Assembly (NCBI GenBank): GCA_902600485.1
Contig: CACKJD010000005.1
Span: 15,905 to 79,904 of the forward strand
DNA length: 64,000 bases
Direction: 5' to 3'
Source of the DNA: an uncultured Pelagibacteraceae bacterium
GTDB lineage: Bacteria > Pseudomonadota > Alphaproteobacteria > Pelagibacterales > Pelagibacteraceae
Shown: positions 9,493 through 53,253 of the stretch, one piece after another
How the letters are laid out: every line of letters begins with the position of its first letter
Numbering within the stretch: the stretch's first letter is position 1
Made by a program: the position numbers and the translations under genes
Notes under the pieces: generated by a model
The model's database searches: none
The model's input: the letters and a program-made list of their open reading frames with translations, nothing else
What the model was told of the DNA's origin: nothing

Positions 9493-12032
9493 TTTACAAT
9501 AAGATTAACTAATCTATTTTTTACTATAATATGCTTTAATAAATTTTTATCACTTAAAATATTTGATATTTTTTCATCATTTTTAATTTTGTTGATAAGT
9601 TCTCTATCCTGTAAATCTCTCTCAATTTTAATTAACGATTTTTTCTTCCCATTAACTTGAATTACAATATTTACAAATTTATCCTCTAAATATTTTGACT
9701 CAGCTTTAGGCCATTCAATTTTTTTGTCATATTCTAAATCATTAATTGCCTCTGAAATTATATGTGGCATTACTGGCATCATTAAAATTAAAATTTTTAT
9801 GTAATTTTCTTTAATTATTACGGCTTTATAATCTTTATCAATCTCTTTAACTAAAAAATTATAAGTTTCATAAATATTGGCAATAATTACATTGTAATTA
9901 AATTTTTCAAGATTTAATGAAATTTTTTGAATTAATCTATTTGTAAATATTGTAAGATCATTAATATCTTTGCCATTTTTATTTAATTTAATTTTTTCTA
10001 AAATTTTGTTGTGCAGTGTCCAAAATTTATTAACAAATTTATAAGAAGCAACCATGCCTTGTTCTGACCATTGTATATCTTTTTCTGGTGGACTATCAGA
10101 TAATATAAAAAGCCTTACTGCATCAGTTCCGTATGTCTCGATTATTTTTTCTGGGTCAATAACATTTTTTTTTGATTTTGACATTGATTCTGAAGATCCA
10201 ACAATAATCTTTTCTTTTTTATTGCTAACCTTAAAAAAATTCTTTCCATCTTCAGAAAATACTTCGTTGGGACTTAACCAATTATTATTTTTATCCTTAT
10301 ATGTTTCATGGCAAACCATACCTTGAGTAAATAATCCATCAAATGGTTCTTTTGATATAAAATTTTTATTTTTATGATCAAGTGCTAACATAAAAAATCT
10401 AGAATATAATAAGTGCAATATCGCGTGTTCAACACCACCGATATATTGATCCACTGGCATCCAATATTTAATTTCCTCGAGATCATACCCGTAAAGCTTG
10501 TTATTTGGAGAGCAGAAACGAAGATAATACCAGGACGAGTCTACAAAAGTATCGAGTGTATCTGTTTCTAATTTATATTTTTTTCCCCTAATTGTAATTT
10601 CTCTCCATTCTGCTTGATGGTCTAAAGGATTTCCTCTCGTTTTAAGATTTATATTTTCAGGTAGTTTAATTGGCAATTGATCTTCCGGGACAGTTTCATA
10701 ATTTCCTTGATCATCATAGGCAATAGGTATTGGACAGCCCCAATATCTCTGTCTAGATATTCCCCAGTCTTTTAATCTAAAATTAATTTTTTTTTTGCCA
10801 GACTTTATTTCCTCAATCTTAGCAATTGCTTTAGATATAGCTTCATTTGGAGTATTTAATCCGTCTAAAAAGGAAGAATTAATCATTATACCATCACCAA
10901 CATAAGCTTCATCTTCTACCTTGAAATCTCCATTAACATTTTTAGGTTTTACTACAGTTTTAATCGGTAGATTGTATTTTTTGGCAAATTCGAAATCTCT
11001 TTGATCATGAGCTGGACACCCAAAAACCGCACCAAAACCATAGTCCATCAATACAAAATTTGCAAAATAAACTGGAACTTTAGAATTTTCATCAAAAGGA
11101 TTTATAGCTGTAAGATTGGTCTTAAAGCCAATTTTCTCCGCTTGCGCGATAGACTCTTCTGTAGTCCCTGTTTTTGAACATAGTTGTTTAAATTTTTGAA
11201 ATTCTTTATCTTTTTCGTAAAACTTTGAGATAGGATGATCCGCTGATACTGCCAGAAAAGAGAACCCAAATAACGTATCTGGTCTTGTAGTAAAGCATTT
11301 GATTTTATCTACAGATGAGTTTCCATCAATTTTAAAATCTATTTCACAACCAAAAGATTTGCCTATCCAGTTTTTTTGCATAACTTTAACTTTATTAGGC
11401 CATTTATACAAATCATCTAAACCAGTTAAAAGTTCTTCAGAAAATTGAGAGATTTTAAAAAACCATTGGCTTAATTTTTTTCTCTCAACTGTTGCTCCAG
11501 AACGCCATCCCTTACCATCAATGACTTGTTCATTCGCTAAAACAGTTTGCTCGATTGGATCCCAATTAACATAGTTTTCTTTTTTATAAATTAACCCTTT
11601 ATTAAAGAGTTCCAAAAAAAATAATTGTTGATGTTTATAGTACTCTGGTGAACACGTTGAAATTTCTCGATCCCAGTCTATGGATAAACCTAATTTTTTT
11701 AATTGAGTTTTCATGACAGAAATATTCCTTTCTGTCCAATCTTTTGGATCTAGATTATTTTCTTTTGCTGCATTTTCTGCTGGCATTCCAAAAGAATCCC
11801 AACCCATTGGATGAAGGACATTATAATTTTGAAGTGACTTGTATCTGGCTAGGACATCACCTATCGTATAATTTCTTACGTGTCCCATATGTATTTTGCC
11901 AGATGGATAGGGGAACATTTCTAGGCAATAAAATTTTTTCTTTTTTTTATCTAGCTCTGTTTTAAAACTTTTATTTTTTTGCCAAAATTTTTGCCATTTT
12001 TCTTCTACAATTTTAAAATTATATCTTTCCAC
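9489..12032 (-). CDS. leuS: Leucyl-tRNA synthetase (GTG start)
   Basis: [13 protein letters not shown] (HIGH), [20 protein letters not shown]. Confidence 0.98.
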
Positions 12033-49898: not shown

Positions 49899-51971
49899 AT
49901 GTTTAAAATATTCAAAAAAGAAGTTGAAGTTAGTGGAAAGAAAATCAGGTTAGAAACTGGTAAAATTGCAAGGCAAGCAGATGGAGCAATAATTGCTACG
50001 TGTGGAGAAACAGTTGTTCTAGCAACAGTCGTCGGAGCAAAAAAAGTAAATCCTGATGTAGATTATTTTCCATTATCGGTAAATTATCAAGAAAAGTACT
50101 ACGCTGCAGGAAAAATTCCTGGTGGATATTTTAAAAGAGAGGCTAGACCAACAGAAAGCGAAACTCTTATTTCAAGATTGATTGATAGACCTATTAGACC
50201 TTTGTTTCCAGATGAATTTAGAAATGAAGTTCAGTTATTACCTACAGTAATTTCTTATGATAAAGAAAATGAAGCTGATATTTTATCAATTATTGCATCT
50301 TCAGCTGCATTAGCAATATCTGGAATGCCATTTATGGGACCAGTAGGTGCATCAAGAGTAGGTTTTATAGGTGGTAAATATGTTTTAAATCCTACCAAAA
50401 AAGAATTAGAAAATTCAAAACTAGATTTAGTTGTAGCAGGAACCAAGGATGCTGTTTTAATGGTTGAGTCTGAAGCAAAGGGTTTGACAGAACAACAAAT
50501 GCTAGATGCAGTTAAATTTGGTCATGAGGGTTTCGTACCAGTCATAAAAATGATAGAGGAACTTGCAAAAGAATGTAAAAAACCTGATTGGGTTGTTGAA
50601 AAAAAAGATTTATCTGAAGTAAAGAAAAAGTTAGAGAGTGAATTTACAAAAGACCTAAAAAAAGCTTTTTCAATTAAAGATAAACAAGAAAGATCTAATT
50701 TAATATCTGAAGTAACTGAAAAAGCTAAAAAGTTGTACGAAGAAGACGAAAATTATTCAGAACTAGATGTTATGCATGAATTGAAAAATCTTGAAAAAGG
50801 CATTGTGAGAACAGACATACTTAAAAATAAAAATCGTATTGATGGCAGAGGTCTTTCAGATGTAAGACCAATTAAATGTGAAGTTGGAATACTACCAAGA
50901 GTTCATGGATCAGCATTATTCACCAGAGGAGAAACACAAGCAATTGTTACAACAACTCTAGGAACATCTGATGATGAACAAAGAATTGAAAGTTTAGAGG
51001 GTCTACAACGTGAGAGATTCATGCTTCATTATAACTTTCCTCCTTTTTCTGTTGGAGAAACGGGAAGAATAGGAACTGGAAGAAGAGAAATAGGTCACGG
51101 TAAACTAGCATGGAGAGCAATAAATTCATCTTTACCTACAAAAGAAAGTTTTCCATATACATTTAGAATAGTTTCAGAAATCACAGAGTCTAACGGTTCT
51201 TCATCGATGGCAACTGTTTGTGGTTCGTCTTTAGCACTTATGGATGCTGGTGTACCAATTAAAGAGCCAGTTGCTGGTATAGCAATGGGATTAATTAAAG
51301 AGGGAGATGATTTTAGTGTTCTATCAGATATCTTAGGTGATGAGGATCATTTAGGAGACATGGATTTTAAAGTCGCTGGAACTAAAGATGGAATTACTTC
51401 TTTGCAAATGGATATAAAAATAACAGGAATTACATTTGAAATTATGGAGCAAGCTTTAAAACAAGCTAAAGACGGTAGAGTACATATTTTAGATGAAATG
51501 AATAAAGCATTATCTAAATCAAGAGATGATGTGGGAAAACATACTCCTAAAATGGAAAAAATAACTGTTGAAAAGAAAGATATAGCTACAGTTATTGGAA
51601 AAGGTGGTGCAACAATCAGAGAGATTGTTGAAAAATCAGGCGCTAAAGTTGATGTCAATGATGAAGGTGAAGTAACAGTAGCAGCACCAGATGAAGACTC
51701 AAGAAATAAAGCAATGCAAATGATTAAAGATTTAACAGCTAAAGCTGAACTTAACAAAATTTATAACGGTAAAGTTATGAAAATTATGGAGTTTGGTGCA
51801 TTTGTAAATTTTTTGGGAAAACAAGATGGCCTAGTCCATATTTCGGAACTTGCAGATAAAAGAGTGGCTAAAGTAACAGATGTTGTAAAAGAAGGAGATG
51901 AAGTAAAAGTAAAAGTCATAGGTTTTGATAGAGGTAAAGTTAAACTATCAATTAAACAAGCCACCGTATAA
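49899..51971 (+). CDS. pnp: Polynucleotide phosphorylase
   Basis: [40 protein letters not shown] and S1 domains. Confidence 0.98.
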
Positions 51972-52904: not shown

Positions 52905-52932
52905 TTGCAATAACTTTTTAAAAATGTAAGCT
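52905..52932 (+). promoter_or_regulatory. Putative sigma70 promoter of the pseudoknot-leader transcript
   Basis: TTGCAA-N16-TAAGCT; predicted start site ~52938-52940, at the first base of the pseudoknot. Confidence 0.55.
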
Positions 52933-52939
52933 TTCTTTA

Positions 52940-52990
52940 ACCATATCTCATGGTGATAAAGAGACCGATATCGCATCGGTTAAAAGCGAG
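52940..52990 (+). ncRNA. Candidate structured 5' leader: two tandem H-type pseudoknots
   Basis: ACCAT-A-TCTC-ATGGT-GATAAA-GAGA then ACCGAT-A-TCGC-ATCGGT-TAAAA-GCGA; compensatory changes in both stems. Confidence 0.65.
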
Positions 52991-53017
52991 TTTTGGAAAA
53001 ACTAACAAGGAGTGTGT

Positions 53018-53209
53018 ATGAAAAGAATGCACAGAGTTCTTAATTCGTTTAGCCGAGGCTCAAAGATCGCTAGGCTAAATCAATTAATGTTCCGAAATTT
53101 AAAATCTGTTGAAGCTAATGGCAATGGCACAAGCGGATACGTTATTAAATCTGGAAAAAACTCTGGAAAAGTTGTTGGGCATTTAAAAAAAGAGCCTAAA
53201 AACATTTAA
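53018..53209 (+). CDS. Small basic hypothetical protein, 63 aa
   Basis: AAGGAG SD then ATG 53018; motif EANGNGTSGYVIKSG.NSGKV..H. Confidence 0.85.
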   Translation: MKRMHRVLNSFSRGSKIARLNQLMFRNLKSVEANGNGTSGYVIKSGKNSGKVVGHLKKEPKNI

Positions 53210-53216
53210 TTAAGAT

Positions 53217-53253
53217 TGGGGTATGGGGGCACCTGGCAACAGAACGCCCCATC
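53217..53253 (+). repeat. Structured 3' element, copy B
   Basis: TGGGGTATGGGGGCACCTGGCAACAGAACGCCCCATC; near-identical to 17815-17850. Confidence 0.85.

What the first reader, a model, noticed from the sequence alone, without database searches (positions are those of the whole stretch)
52940..52990. Tandem, covarying H-type pseudoknots at the predicted 5' end of a transcript
Unit 1: S1 ACCAU/AUGGU, L1 A, S2 UCUC/GAGA, L3 GAUAAA. Unit 2 starts on the last base of unit 1: S1 ACCGAU/AUCGGU, L1 A, S2 UCGC/GCGA, L3 UAAAA. The copies differ by an inserted G-C pair in S1 and a U-A to G-C swap in S2, both compensatory, which is internal covariation evidence. A sigma70-like promoter predicts a start at ~52939. 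A short hairpin (GUUUU-GGA-AAAAC) and the AAGGAG SD follow. It does not match, as I recall them, SAM-II/V, preQ1, glutamine or guanidine aptamers. It is a candidate new tandem riboswitch, protein-binding leader or 5'-exonuclease block.
Basis: partly seen in the sequence, partly recalled or inferred. Interest (0 to 1): 0.85.

Follow-up and report, generated by a model that had tools for sequence, protein, structure and literature searches.

The report
Tandem pseudoknot leader of SAR11 mRNA
The first 50 bases of the messenger RNA for a tiny, very abundant, uncharacterised protein of the ocean bacterium Pelagibacter fold into two back-to-back miniature pseudoknots that evolution has preserved by compensating base changes, which makes this a real regulatory RNA element that is absent from Rfam and whose job is still unknown.

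Summary
Window 52940-52989 (+) can form two abutting compact H-type pseudoknots (PK1 52940-52964, PK2 52964-52989), upstream of SD AAGGAG (53007-12) and a real 63-aa ORF (53018-53209).

In this one sequence the evidence is weak: the stems are 4-6 bp and the hairpins fold at only -3.5 and -5.6 kcal/mol. Comparison is decisive. More than 200 Pelagibacterales loci carry the same architecture upstream of the same small basic protein family. That family has a mobile type A, as in the window, and rlmN-linked types B-F. All four helices covary: 98% of cells are paired, 10 of 18 pairs change on both sides, and the covariation score is 0.54 against at most 0.07 for slid controls.

Sequence conservation starts exactly at 52940, 7 nt after a -10-like box. 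Three unclassified marine MAGs carry four such units before a different small basic protein.

Rfam has no match, and the protein has no Pfam or NCBIfam family. Loops L1 and L3 are not conserved and the SD is never part of a pseudoknot, so a riboswitch is unlikely. I favour a gene-specific protein-binding (autoregulatory) operator that also protects the 5' end. A purely passive 5' stabiliser is the close rival. The element may be the same as the unfollowed 'RS05825'/'sORF-1' candidates of Stav et al. 2019; I could not check this.

The parts
52905..52932 (+). Promoter-like region: -35 TTGCAA (52905-10), 16-nt spacer, -10 TAAGCT (52927-32). It predicts a start at about 52938-52940.
   Evidence: Read from the sequence. 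It was not listed by the consensus scan. Every leader type has a -10-like box 7-10 nt before S1, and types C/D also have TTGACA. Sequence upstream of 52940 is not conserved between clades. The TSS was not mapped experimentally.
52940..52964 (+). Pseudoknot 1: S1 52940-44/52950-54, L1 52945, S2 52946-49/52961-64, L3 52955-60.
   Evidence: S1 changes C-G to G-C in L086/87. The outer pair is seen as A-U, C-G, U-A, U.G and G.U. S2 changes C-G to G-C between type A and types B-F.
52964..52989 (+). Pseudoknot 2: S1 52964-69/52975-80, L1 52970, S2 52971-74/52986-89, L3 52981-85.
   Evidence: S1 is seen as ACCGAU, GCUCAU, CGGCAU, AGGCAU, CAGCAU, CUGCAU and CCGCAU, each with the matching 3' strand. S2 is seen as UCGC/GCGA, CGAC/GUCG, CUAC/GUAG and UCGC/GCGG.
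52990..53006 (+). Spacer holding the weak hairpin GUUUU-GGA-AAAAC (52990-53002). It is A-rich and essentially unstructured.
   Evidence: The hairpin folds at 0 kcal/mol alone. It is present only in type A. Types B-F and L088 have an unstructured A-rich spacer of about 10-13 nt instead.
53007..53012 (+). Shine-Dalgarno AAGGAG. It is not part of either pseudoknot.
   Evidence: It is conserved in all types.
53018..53209 (+). CDS for a 63-aa basic protein (MKRMHRVLNSFSRGSK...NGTSGYVIKSGKNSGKVVGHLKKEPKNI). It belongs to a Pelagibacterales-wide family with no known function.
   Evidence: Synonymous third-position changes show it is coding. A single-sequence search found 97 homologue clusters, and a profile search found 963. 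It has no Pfam or NCBIfam match. It matches phrog_32989 and has pelagiphage homologues. The exact sequence occurs on at least 1000 contigs.
53217..53226 (+). 3'-UTR segment UGGGGUAUGG, complementary to the 5' end CCAUAUCUCA (52941-52950).
   Evidence: The MFE fold of the whole transcript pairs the two ends. A 9-11 bp helix is present in 61 of 71 distinct type A 5'/3' combinations, against 2.4% of shuffled 3' UTRs. It is absent in types B-F, so it may be an accessory, type-A-only feature.
53226..53250 (+). Terminator-like hairpin GGGGC-ACCUGGCAACAGAAC-GCCCC. It marks the end of the conserved cassette.
   Evidence: Conservation and metatranscriptome contigs end at 53250. The loop matches the 3' signature of alphaproteobacterial tmRNA (RF01849, 35 bits, below the gathering score of 50).

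Best explanation
The 50 nt at 52940-52989 are the 5'-terminal part of the mRNA of a 63-aa basic protein. They fold into two coaxially compact H-type pseudoknots. Each has S1 of 4-6 bp closed by CAU/AUG, L1 of 0-1 nt, L2 of 0 nt, S2 of 3-4 bp, and an A-rich L3 of 5-6 nt ending in AAA-G. This much is shown by covariation.

The following is inferred. The array is a gene-specific post-transcriptional operator. It would be the structured recognition or nucleation site for a protein, most likely the encoded small basic protein itself. When that protein is in excess, it would bind the pseudoknots and occlude the adjacent unstructured A-rich spacer and SD, which would repress translation. This is autogenous control in the manner of the 5' pseudoknot operator of T4 gene 32 or of ribosomal-protein leaders. 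A by-product is that a base-paired 5' terminus also shields the transcript from 5'-end-dependent decay. It is not a metabolite-sensing riboswitch.
For: Structure:
- On the hand-anchored alignment A5 of 19 distinct leaders, 98.2% of cells are paired and 10 of 18 pairs change on both sides. The covariation score is 0.542, against at most 0.072 for slid partners and 0 of 500 shuffles.
- An untouched MAFFT alignment of 26 type B-F leaders gives 99.5% paired. PK2-S1 pair 29-43 occurs as GC, UA, CG and AU.

5'-terminal position:
- blastn conservation begins at ref position 41, which is window 52940.
- -10 boxes lie 7-10 nt upstream in every type, and types C/D have TTGACA as well.

Gene specificity:
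- Every full-motif hit in Pelagibacterales precedes a member of the same protein family, although the genomic contexts differ: pnp/fabI, GFO-MocA/cupin-SOUL, MFS/soxG, and upstream of rlmN.
- There is one copy in the 64-kb window.
- Neither the CM nor the descriptor scan found an array at any other gene in the roughly 295 loci then held.
- The unit number varies, 2 in SAR11 and 4 in L195/L263/L268. The latter precede a small basic protein that shares weak N-terminal motifs with the family (xSRG; NQxLxFxRL).

Other points:
- Beyond pairing, some positions are invariant in all units of all types: CAU/AUG at the loop end of most S1 helices (GAU/AUC in type A PK2), C before the 3' strand, and AAA-G at the L3/S2 junction.
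- The A-rich spacer and SD are always outside the fold.
- The protein is basic, and AlphaFold models it with low confidence (pLDDT 60.6). That would fit a disordered-until-bound nucleic-acid binder, but it does not show one.
- The transcript is abundant in marine metatranscriptomes: depth about 320 against 16-25 in the flanks in run X2.
Against: - No binding, TSS or expression experiment exists, so the protein partner is pure inference.
- The SD is not part of the structure, so repression needs spreading or steric occlusion. Nothing here shows either.
- Pelagiphage homologues of the protein lack any such leader.
- High conservation of very short stems is also expected from purely structural selection.
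- The 5'-3' end pairing of type A and the terminal location fit a passive stabiliser equally well.
- With L1 = 0 nt in the 4-nt loops of types C/D/E and L088, a 4-bp S2 is sterically doubtful, so S2 may be only 3 bp there.
- Alignment A5 was anchored by hand on the stems, which biases its counts upward.
Confidence: 0.35

Rival explanations
1. Passive 5' stabiliser or exonuclease block. The two (or four) stacked pseudoknots simply keep the 5' terminus base-paired and mechanically robust. That would hinder RppH/RNase E 5'-end sensing or 5'-to-3' RNase J, and give a long-lived, highly expressed mRNA. No trans factor would be involved.
For: - The element starts 0-3 nt from the predicted TSS in all types.
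- The SD and spacer are left free.
- The transcript is very abundant in metatranscriptomes.
- In type A the same 5' nucleotides can instead pair with the 3' UTR, giving a 9-11 bp panhandle.
- Loops are variable, as expected if only the fold matters.
- Unit number is variable.
Against: - Known bacterial 5' stabilisers are simple hairpins, and nothing here explains the need for pseudoknots.
- A generic stabiliser should appear on other highly expressed genes. It was found only with this protein family.
- Positions that are invariant beyond pairing (CAU/AUG, AAA-G) suggest recognition or specific tertiary contacts.
- I did not check whether SAR11 has RNase J, RNase E or RppH.
Confidence: 0.3
2. 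Folding switch or RNA thermometer. PK1 competes with alternative pairings of its 5' strand, either with the SD/start region (CAUA.CUC with GAG-UGUG, and CAUA with UAUG) or with the 3' UTR. Temperature, co-transcriptional kinetics or 3' processing would then decide whether the SD is open, as in hok-type fold-back control or the cspA mRNA.
For: - The MFE of the 81-nt leader pairs 52942-49 with the SD/spacer.
- The full-transcript MFE pairs the 5' end with 53218-26.
- The 9-11 bp 5'-3' helix is kept through G/A changes opposite U in most type A clades.
- The individual pseudoknot stems are weak.
Against: - Both alternative pairings are confined to type A. They are absent in L089/L092 and L114, and in types B-F and the 4-unit arrays, although the pseudoknots themselves are universal.
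- In L088 the 3' element is kept but the 5' partner has changed.
Confidence: 0.12
3. A new tandem riboswitch. Each pseudoknot would be a minimal aptamer for a small ligand or ion, and the two would act cooperatively.
For: - H-type pseudoknot aptamers exist (preQ1-I, SAM-II/V, guanidine-III).
- SAR11 is rich in riboswitches (PMC2704228).
- Stav et al. 2019 (PMC6429828) rated a SAR11 motif upstream of an unknown small gene ('RS05825') as a strong riboswitch candidate. That motif may be the type B-F leader.
Against: - There are no conserved unpaired nucleotides: L1 is A, U, G, C or absent, L3 varies in length and sequence, and L2 is 0 nt.
- Each unit is about 25 nt, smaller than any known aptamer.
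- The SD lies outside the fold.
- Type B-F PK2 tolerates a 14-16-nt hairpin insertion in L3.
- The element occurs with a single non-metabolic protein family only.
- There is no Rfam hit.
Confidence: 0.07
4. DNA-level operator. The inverted repeats ACCAT-N5-ATGGT and ACCGAT-N5-ATCGGT would bind a dimeric transcription factor just downstream of the promoter.
For: Both S1 helices are palindromic in DNA and lie at +1 to +40. The terminator scan even reads the minus strand of unit 2 as a hairpin.
Against: - Covariation of S2, which pairs a loop with a downstream tail that is not an inverted repeat of S1, cannot be explained at the DNA level.
- The half-site sequences differ completely between types while pairing is kept.
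Confidence: 0.03
5. The region is not an mRNA leader at all. It would be part of a degenerate two-piece tmRNA or another ncRNA gene, or the leader would encode a uORF that starts at AUG 52950.
For: - A sub-threshold alpha_tmRNA hit lies at 53178-53253.
- The AUG at 52950 opens a 23-codon frame that ends in UGA overlapping the main AUG.
Against: - ARAGORN finds no tmRNA and there is no GGCRGUA T-loop nearby. The Rfam hit covers only the terminator loop.
- The ORF shows codon-type substitution.
- The uORF frame and stop are not conserved. L3 indels shift it in L081 and L167, and it is fused in-frame in P0116/L174.
Confidence: 0.02

Closest known systems
Phage T4/T2 gene 32 translational operator (5' H-type pseudoknot followed by an unstructured A/U-rich region). 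Compared from established knowledge, not tested here.
   Same: A compact H-type pseudoknot sits at the extreme 5' end of the mRNA. It is followed by an unstructured A-rich stretch that contains the SD. The gene encodes a small or basic nucleic-acid-binding type of product, and the element travels with the gene.
   Different: There are two (or four) tandem units instead of one. The stems are shorter (S2 of 3-4 bp against about 7 bp). The encoded protein is unrelated to gp32, and no binding has been shown.
Autoregulatory ribosomal-protein leaders with pseudoknots (E. coli rpsO/S15, alpha-operon/S4, rpsB motif).
   Same: They are cis-acting, gene-specific, covarying leader structures for small basic proteins. 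A SAR11 rpsB pseudoknot leader is already described (PMC2704228).
   Different: In those leaders the pseudoknot includes or abuts the SD or start codon. Here the SD is 11-19 nt away. The protein is not a recognised ribosomal protein. The only PDB hit is eL22 at E about 0.8, which is not significant.
H-type pseudoknot riboswitch aptamers: preQ1-I, SAM-II, SAM-V, guanidine-III.
   Same: The H-type topology and an A-rich 3' loop. SAM-V was discovered in Pelagibacter.
   Different: No Rfam model matches. There are no conserved pocket nucleotides and L2 is 0 nt. The SD is not in the 3' strand, and there is no link to metabolic genes.
5'-terminal mRNA stabilisers (ompA 5' stem-loop, ermC/aprE leaders) and exoribonuclease-resistant RNAs (flavivirus xrRNA).
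   Same: The structure begins within a few nucleotides of the 5' end, and the transcript is abundant.
   Different: Bacterial stabilisers are plain hairpins. xrRNAs have a ring-like three-way-junction fold, which is not present here.
Tandem small-pseudoknot arrays: the TMV 3' upstream pseudoknot domain, and tmRNA PK2-PK4.
   Same: Head-to-tail arrays of minimal pseudoknots with 3-6 bp stems that can stack into a stalk, with a variable number of units.
   Different: Those arrays lie at the 3' end of viral RNAs or inside tmRNA. This one is at the 5' end of a bacterial mRNA.
'RS05825 RNA' (strong riboswitch candidate) and 'sORF-1' of Stav et al. 2019, found in SAR11 strain HIMB5 (PMC6429828).
   Same: - RS05825 is SAR11-only, always lies upstream of a gene of unknown function, and has several hairpins shortly before the RBS.
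- The spacing from its IGR (1096977-1096812) to the RmuC-proximal IGR fits a layout of small gene, rlmN and a roughly 130-aa gene, as in L167.
- sORF-1 is a Ser/Lys-rich sORF in variable contexts with 1080 examples.
   Different: - The published text describes three hairpins, with an asymmetric internal loop in P2, and mentions no pseudoknots.
- It lists only 80 examples.
- Neither the figures nor the alignments nor the HIMB5 sequence could be accessed, so identity is unverified.
- Neither motif is in Rfam 15.

Membership tests
Generic H-type pseudoknot | Two helices, with the 3' strand of S2 pairing to the hairpin loop of S1, both supported by covariation | tested here: met
   with the raw variants. 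All four helices show changes on both sides.
Generic H-type pseudoknot | Loop lengths compatible with the stems: L1 must span the deep groove of S2, and L3 the shallow groove of S1 | tested here: inconclusive
   In the window, L1 = 1 nt with a 4-bp S2, and L3 = 5-6 nt with a 5-6-bp S1. By textbook geometry that is plausible. In types C/D/E and L088 the loop is 4 nt and fully complementary, which implies L1 = 0, so S2 can probably form only 3 bp there. No 3D modelling was done.
preQ1-I / SAM-II / SAM-V / guanidine-III and other Rfam riboswitches | A match to the family covariance model | tested here: not met
   cmscan found no hit on the motif, even at E <= 10 in the window and E <= 1 in six other leader types.
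preQ1-I / SAM-II / SAM-V / guanidine-III and other Rfam riboswitches | Conserved unpaired nucleotides that form a ligand pocket, and an SD sequestered in the fold | tested here: not met
   L1 and L3 vary in sequence and length, L2 = 0, and the SD lies 11-19 nt downstream.
Alphaproteobacterial two-piece tmRNA (RF01849) | tRNA-like domain with a GGCRGUA T-loop, a tag reading frame, and a CM score above the gathering score | tested here: not met
   The score is 35.1 bits against a gathering score of 50, and the hit covers only the terminator loop. ARAGORN finds nothing. The only GGCRGTA in the window is at 11247, inside a gene.
Autogenous translational operator (T4 gene 32 / r-protein leader type) | The cis element is strictly linked to the regulated gene across contexts and paralogues | tested here: met
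   Every full motif precedes a family member, and there is one copy in the window.
Autogenous translational operator (T4 gene 32 / r-protein leader type) | The encoded protein binds its own leader and represses translation | not testable with these tools
   This needs EMSA or filter binding and reporter assays.
5'-terminal mRNA stabiliser | The structure begins within about 0-4 nt of the mapped 5' end | tested here: inconclusive
   Promoter spacing and the sharp conservation boundary at 52940 fit this. Only assembled metatranscriptome contigs were available, and they cannot place a TSS.
5'-terminal mRNA stabiliser | Removing the structure shortens the mRNA half-life | not testable with these tools
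   This needs an experiment.
RS05825 RNA / sORF-1 (Stav et al. 2019) | The same genomic locus in HIMB5 (NC_018643.1: 1096812-1096977, or 91628-91899) | not testable with these tools
   HIMB5 did not appear in any of the four genome-contig scans. The paper's figures and alignments are not held as text.

The most novel reading that the evidence does not exclude
A modular, repeatable 25-nt pseudoknot unit, in two to four copies, forms a stacked 5'-terminal 'stalk' on the mRNAs of a previously unrecognised family of small basic proteins. The family would be RNA-binding and has pelagiphage-encoded homologues. The stalk would act as that family's dedicated autoregulatory operator and, at the same time, as a bacterial analogue of viral exonuclease-resistant or UPD-type pseudoknot arrays. 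This would be a new class of cis-regulatory RNA in the most abundant bacteria of the ocean.
Probability: 0.3. Interest if true: 0.8.

Novelty: new variant of a known kind. Interest (0 to 1): 0.6.

Why it matters
SAR11 has very few protein regulators and leans heavily on RNA-based control. This element is one of the most strongly conserved non-coding sequences found in these genomes here. It is more conserved than the gene it precedes. It sits on a transcript that is highly abundant in ocean metatranscriptomes, and the protein sequence occurs on at least 1000 metagenomic contigs.

A minimal, tandemly repeatable pseudoknot at the very 5' end of a bacterial mRNA is an unusual design. Working out its partner, whether the encoded protein, an RNase or the ribosome, would do two things. 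It would assign a first function to a SAR11- and pelagiphage-wide orphan protein family, and it would add a new type of leader to the known set of bacterial post-transcriptional control. The element is also small enough (50 nt) for direct structural and single-molecule study.

Tried and rejected
1. tmRNA gene. The alpha_tmRNA hit covers only the terminator loop. ARAGORN finds nothing and there is no T-loop. The ORF evolves as a coding sequence.
2. uORF from AUG 52950. Its frame is not conserved, because L3 indels shift it.
3. SD sequestration by the pseudoknots. It is never seen. An alternative 5'-end/SD pairing exists only in type A.
4. 5'-3' UTR pairing as the core feature. It is significant in type A but absent in types B-F, L089 and the 4-unit arrays.
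5. Known RNA families. Four Rfam scans found nothing. The Pelagibacter motifs of Meyer 2009 have other contexts.
6. Protein identity. Pfam, NCBIfam and PDB gave nothing. The AF2 model was too poor (pLDDT 60.6) to justify a fold search.
7. TSS from public RNA runs. Only Logan contigs were available, and they break at strain variants rather than at transcript ends.
8. MAFFT alignment of all types together. It misaligned PK2. I therefore used a loop-pruned, stem-anchored alignment (A5), plus an untouched alignment of types B-F only (A7).
9. Checking identity with Stav et al.'s RS05825 and sORF-1. HIMB5 could not be retrieved in any of the four genome scans.
10. Non-SAR11 hits of the 22-nt pattern scan. 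Apart from three unclassified marine MAGs (L195, L263, L268) that carry the 4-unit array, they are chance matches. Those listed lack unit 2, and the CM matched none of the loci it scanned, L176-L255.
Full report
**1. What is in the window**

- PK1: ACCAU-A-UCUC-AUGGU-GAUAAA-GAGA, at 52940-52964.
- PK2: ACCGAU-A-UCGC-AUCGGU-UAAAA-GCGA, at 52964-52989.
- After these come GUUUUGGAAAAAC (52990-53002), AAGGAG (53007-12) and ATG at 53018.
- The ATG opens a 63-codon ORF that ends at 53209.
- Upstream lie pnp (49899-51971), an FkbM-type methyltransferase and a 50-aa ORF. Downstream on the other strand lie a lipoprotein, fabI and a fabB/F-like gene.

The proposed promoter is TTGCAA-16 nt-TAAGCT (52905-52932). 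It is weak and was not listed by the consensus scan.

On its own the sequence is not impressive.
- The two S1 hairpins fold at -3.5 and -5.6 kcal/mol, with z-scores of -0.4 and -1.1.
- The 50-mer has z -1.6.
- The 'third hairpin' has no predicted stability.
- A generic descriptor for two adjacent compact pseudoknots finds this site and one AT-only artefact in 64 kb. Shuffles give 0.275.

**2. It is an mRNA leader, not an ncRNA gene**

Rfam gives nothing on the motif. It does give a sub-threshold alpha_tmRNA hit (35 bits against a gathering score of 50) at 53178-53253. I followed this up.
- ARAGORN finds no tmRNA.
- There is no alphaproteobacterial T-loop signature near the site.
- The hit is confined to the loop of the terminator hairpin, ACCUGGCAACAGAAC.

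The ORF is real. Across 74 distinct homologous loci the differences fall on third codon positions, for example AAC/AAT, GGA/GGG, CAT/CAC and TTA/TTG.

The protein family:
- It has 97 clusters by single-sequence search and 963 by profile search. All are unnamed or 'hypothetical'.
- It has no Pfam or NCBIfam family and no significant PDB relative.
- AlphaFold2 gives only a low-confidence model of two N-terminal helices plus a beta-hairpin (pLDDT 60.6).
- It does match phrog_32989. Clear homologues occur in Pelagibacter phages HTVC100P (gp26) and HTVC168P (gp47).

**3. Comparative evidence for the two pseudoknots**

I collected loci through the protein and through a DNA pattern.

DNA similarity to the window begins abruptly at 52940 and ends at 53228-53250. 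The promoter region upstream differs between clades. Within 'type A', the window's type, the leader is almost invariant, even where the protein has dropped to 59% identity. The changes seen are in L1 and L3, or are wobble-compatible.

True covariation comes from more distant members.
- L086/87 turn PK1-S1 ACCAU/AUGGU into AGCAU/AUGCU.
- L088 turns PK2-S1 CCGAU/AUCGG into CUCAU/AUGAG, and PK2-S2 UCGC/GCGA into CUAC/GUAG.

A paralogous lineage, types B-F, always lies directly upstream of rlmN. It has the same architecture with different letters.
- PK1 is (C/U)CCAU-CUGUC-AUGG(G/A)-A6-GAC.
- PK2-S1 is CGGCAU, AGGCAU, CAGCAU, CUGCAU or CCGCAU, each with its exact complement.
- PK2-S2 is CGAC/GUCG, CUAC/GUAG or UCGC/GCGG.
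- L3 of PK2 carries an inserted mini-hairpin that itself covaries: ACCU/AGGGU, ACUCU/AGAGU, ACUCC/GGAGU.

Formal counts:
- On a loop-pruned, stem-anchored alignment of 19 distinct leaders, 98.2% of cells are paired and 10 of 18 pairs change on both sides. The covariation score is 0.542, against at most 0.072 for partners slid by 1-3 columns, and 0 of 500 shuffles reach it. That alignment was anchored by hand, which favours the structure.
- An untouched MAFFT alignment of 26 type B-F leaders gives 99.5% paired. One PK2-S1 pair occurs as GC, UA, CG and AU.

A covariance model built from the nested S1 helices finds one copy in the window (E 9e-7). Among the 80 pattern-scan loci it searched (L176-L255), it finds the motif only in Pelagibacteraceae loci, and none of the chance matches from other phyla.

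**4. The position at the 5' end**

Types C-F have a canonical TTGACA-(about 15-17 nt)-TAATAA/TATTAA promoter. Its -10 box ends 9-10 nt before S1. Every type A clade has a -10-like box 7-10 nt before ACCAU. Together with the sharp conservation boundary, this places the start 0-3 nt before PK1.

I could not map the start directly. Only assembled metatranscriptome contigs were available, and they break at strain-variable flanks. They do show that the cassette 52940-53250 is heavily represented in RNA libraries: depth about 320 against 16-25 in the flanks in run X2.

**5. What argues against a riboswitch**

- L1 is A, U, G, C or absent.
- L3 is A-rich but variable (GAUAAA, GAAAAA, AAAAAA, AACAAA, UAAAAA, A8). 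In PK2 it tolerates a 14-16-nt hairpin.
- L2 is 0 nt.
- The only invariant unpaired feature is AAA before the S2 3' strand. That is typical of A-minor stabilisation in compact pseudoknots (textbook knowledge).
- The SD is always 11-19 nt beyond the fold, in an A-rich stretch.
- The element occurs with one protein family only.

**6. Modularity**

The pattern scan also hit three unclassified marine MAGs: L195 'SP78', L263 and L268. In these, four such units follow a TATATT box head to tail and precede a different 46-67-aa basic protein. Between L195 and L268, S2 of unit b changes from AGGGC/GCCCU to AGAGC/GCUCU. Unit c is nearly identical to PK1 of SAR11 type C. The proteins share only weak N-terminal motifs with the SAR11 family.

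**7. The mechanism**

Shown: there is a conserved tandem pseudoknot fold, at or very near the 5' end of an abundant mRNA, strictly linked to one small basic protein family through many genomic contexts.

Inferred: the function. I favour a gene-specific protein-binding operator, most simply autogenous control by the encoded protein in the manner of T4 gene 32. My reasons are the exclusive gene linkage, the repeated units, the positions that are invariant beyond pairing (CAU/AUG closing most S1 helices, AAA-G), and the free A-rich spacer plus SD next to the structure. My confidence is 0.35.

A passive 5' stabiliser or exonuclease block is nearly as likely (0.30). It is supported by the terminal position, by the transcript abundance and, in type A, by a 9-11-bp complementarity between the 5' end and the 3' UTR just before the terminator. 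That complementarity is present in 61 of 71 distinct combinations, against 2.4% of shuffles.

A folding switch or thermometer that uses these alternative pairings is possible, but it would be confined to type A (0.12). A riboswitch (0.07), a DNA operator (0.03) and the tmRNA or uORF readings (0.02) are unlikely.

**8. Relation to the literature**

None of the Pelagibacter motifs of Meyer et al. 2009 fits (PMC2704228). Stav et al. 2019 analysed SAR11 strain HIMB5 (PMC6429828). Two of their entries could be related to this element.
- 'RS05825 RNA' has 80 examples and was rated a 'strong riboswitch candidate'. It is described as three hairpins, and it lies upstream of an unknown gene about 1.8 kb before an RmuC-proximal IGR. 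That spacing fits the layout small gene, rlmN, and a roughly 130-aa gene.
- 'sORF-1' is a Ser/Lys-rich sORF in diverse contexts, with 1080 examples.

These could be the type B-F leader and the type A gene. I could not test this, because HIMB5 never came up in the four genome scans and the figures are not held as text. No follow-up paper exists in the library, and neither motif is in Rfam 15. Even if the loci coincide, the published text does not mention the tandem-pseudoknot model, the paralogue structure or the 4-unit arrays.

**9. Verdict**

The finding is real and well supported as a structured RNA. The riboswitch reading is improbable, and the function remains to be tested.

I rate it a new variant of a known kind: a pseudoknotted, gene-specific mRNA leader with an unusual tandem, 5'-terminal, modular design. 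Interest 0.6.

Noticed in passing
window 53226-53250; also L121 2063-2087, L017 5061-5073, and second copies in L115, L128, L189 and L239: The terminator hairpin GGGGC-ACCUGGCAACAGAAC-GCCCC has a loop identical to the AACAGAA signature of the 3'-terminal pseudoknot of alphaproteobacterial tmRNA (RF01849, 35-37 bits, below the gathering score). In L121 the second copy terminates an unrelated neighbouring 68-aa signal-peptide gene. Second copies in four other loci lie at a similar spacing, but I did not inspect them. It therefore looks like a recurrent SAR11 terminator module, or a remnant, and its meaning is unknown. Most type A loci of other clades have an ordinary AU-rich loop instead.
   Followed up: partly
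window 52941-52950 with 53217-53226: The 5' end of the mRNA (CCAUAUCUCA) is complementary to the 3' UTR just before the terminator. The 3' segment is UGGGGUAUGG here and AUGAGAUAUGG in other clades. G/A changes opposite U keep the pairing. It is present in 61 of 71 distinct type A combinations, against 2.4% of shuffles. It is absent in L089/L092, L114, L025 and types B-F. It would compete with PK1.
   Followed up: partly
L195 minus strand ~6893-6790; L263; L268 (unclassified marine MAGs): Four tandem units of the same compact pseudoknot follow a -10 box and precede a different 46-67-aa basic protein (ML[KR][ST]VQ...NQNLxFTRLML). In L263 and L268 the array lies just downstream of what looks like a tRNA 3' end. 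There is compensatory change in S2 between L195 and L268.
   Followed up: partly
L296 2489-2653 (Pelagibacter phage HTVC100P gp26); L297 2465-2662 (HTVC168P gp47): Pelagiphages encode homologues of the 63-aa host protein (phrog_32989). The phage copies sit inside tightly packed operons of small genes and have no pseudoknot leader.
   Followed up: partly
L131-L162, L164-L175, L298-L374 (types B-F): A paralogue of the small protein, with its own tandem-pseudoknot leader, lies about 55 nt upstream of rlmN (radical-SAM rRNA/tRNA methyltransferase) on the same strand in every locus I inspected. A hairpin without a U-tract separates the two genes. This is a possible hint of a translation-related role, or of co-transcription.
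   Followed up: no
window 53042-53086: The MFE fold of the transcript contains a long hairpin inside the CDS (AAUUCGUUUAGCC...GGCUAAAUCAAUU). It covers the most conserved N-terminal codons (FSRGSK..RLNQL). L081 shows one possibly compensatory change (AGCC/GGCU to AAC/GUU). RNA-level constraint on the coding region is possible.
   Followed up: no
L163 (CACASQ010000001.1): A type B copy whose ORF is cut to 20 codons. The 3' strand of S2 in PK1 reads AAC instead of GAC. It is probably a pseudogene or an assembly error.
   Followed up: no
L088 (ERZ27251616 contig): A chimeric family member. Its leader and N-terminal half resemble types C/D, while its C-terminal half and 3' UTR are identical to type A. 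That suggests recombination between the paralogues. It supplies the strongest compensatory changes.
   Followed up: partly
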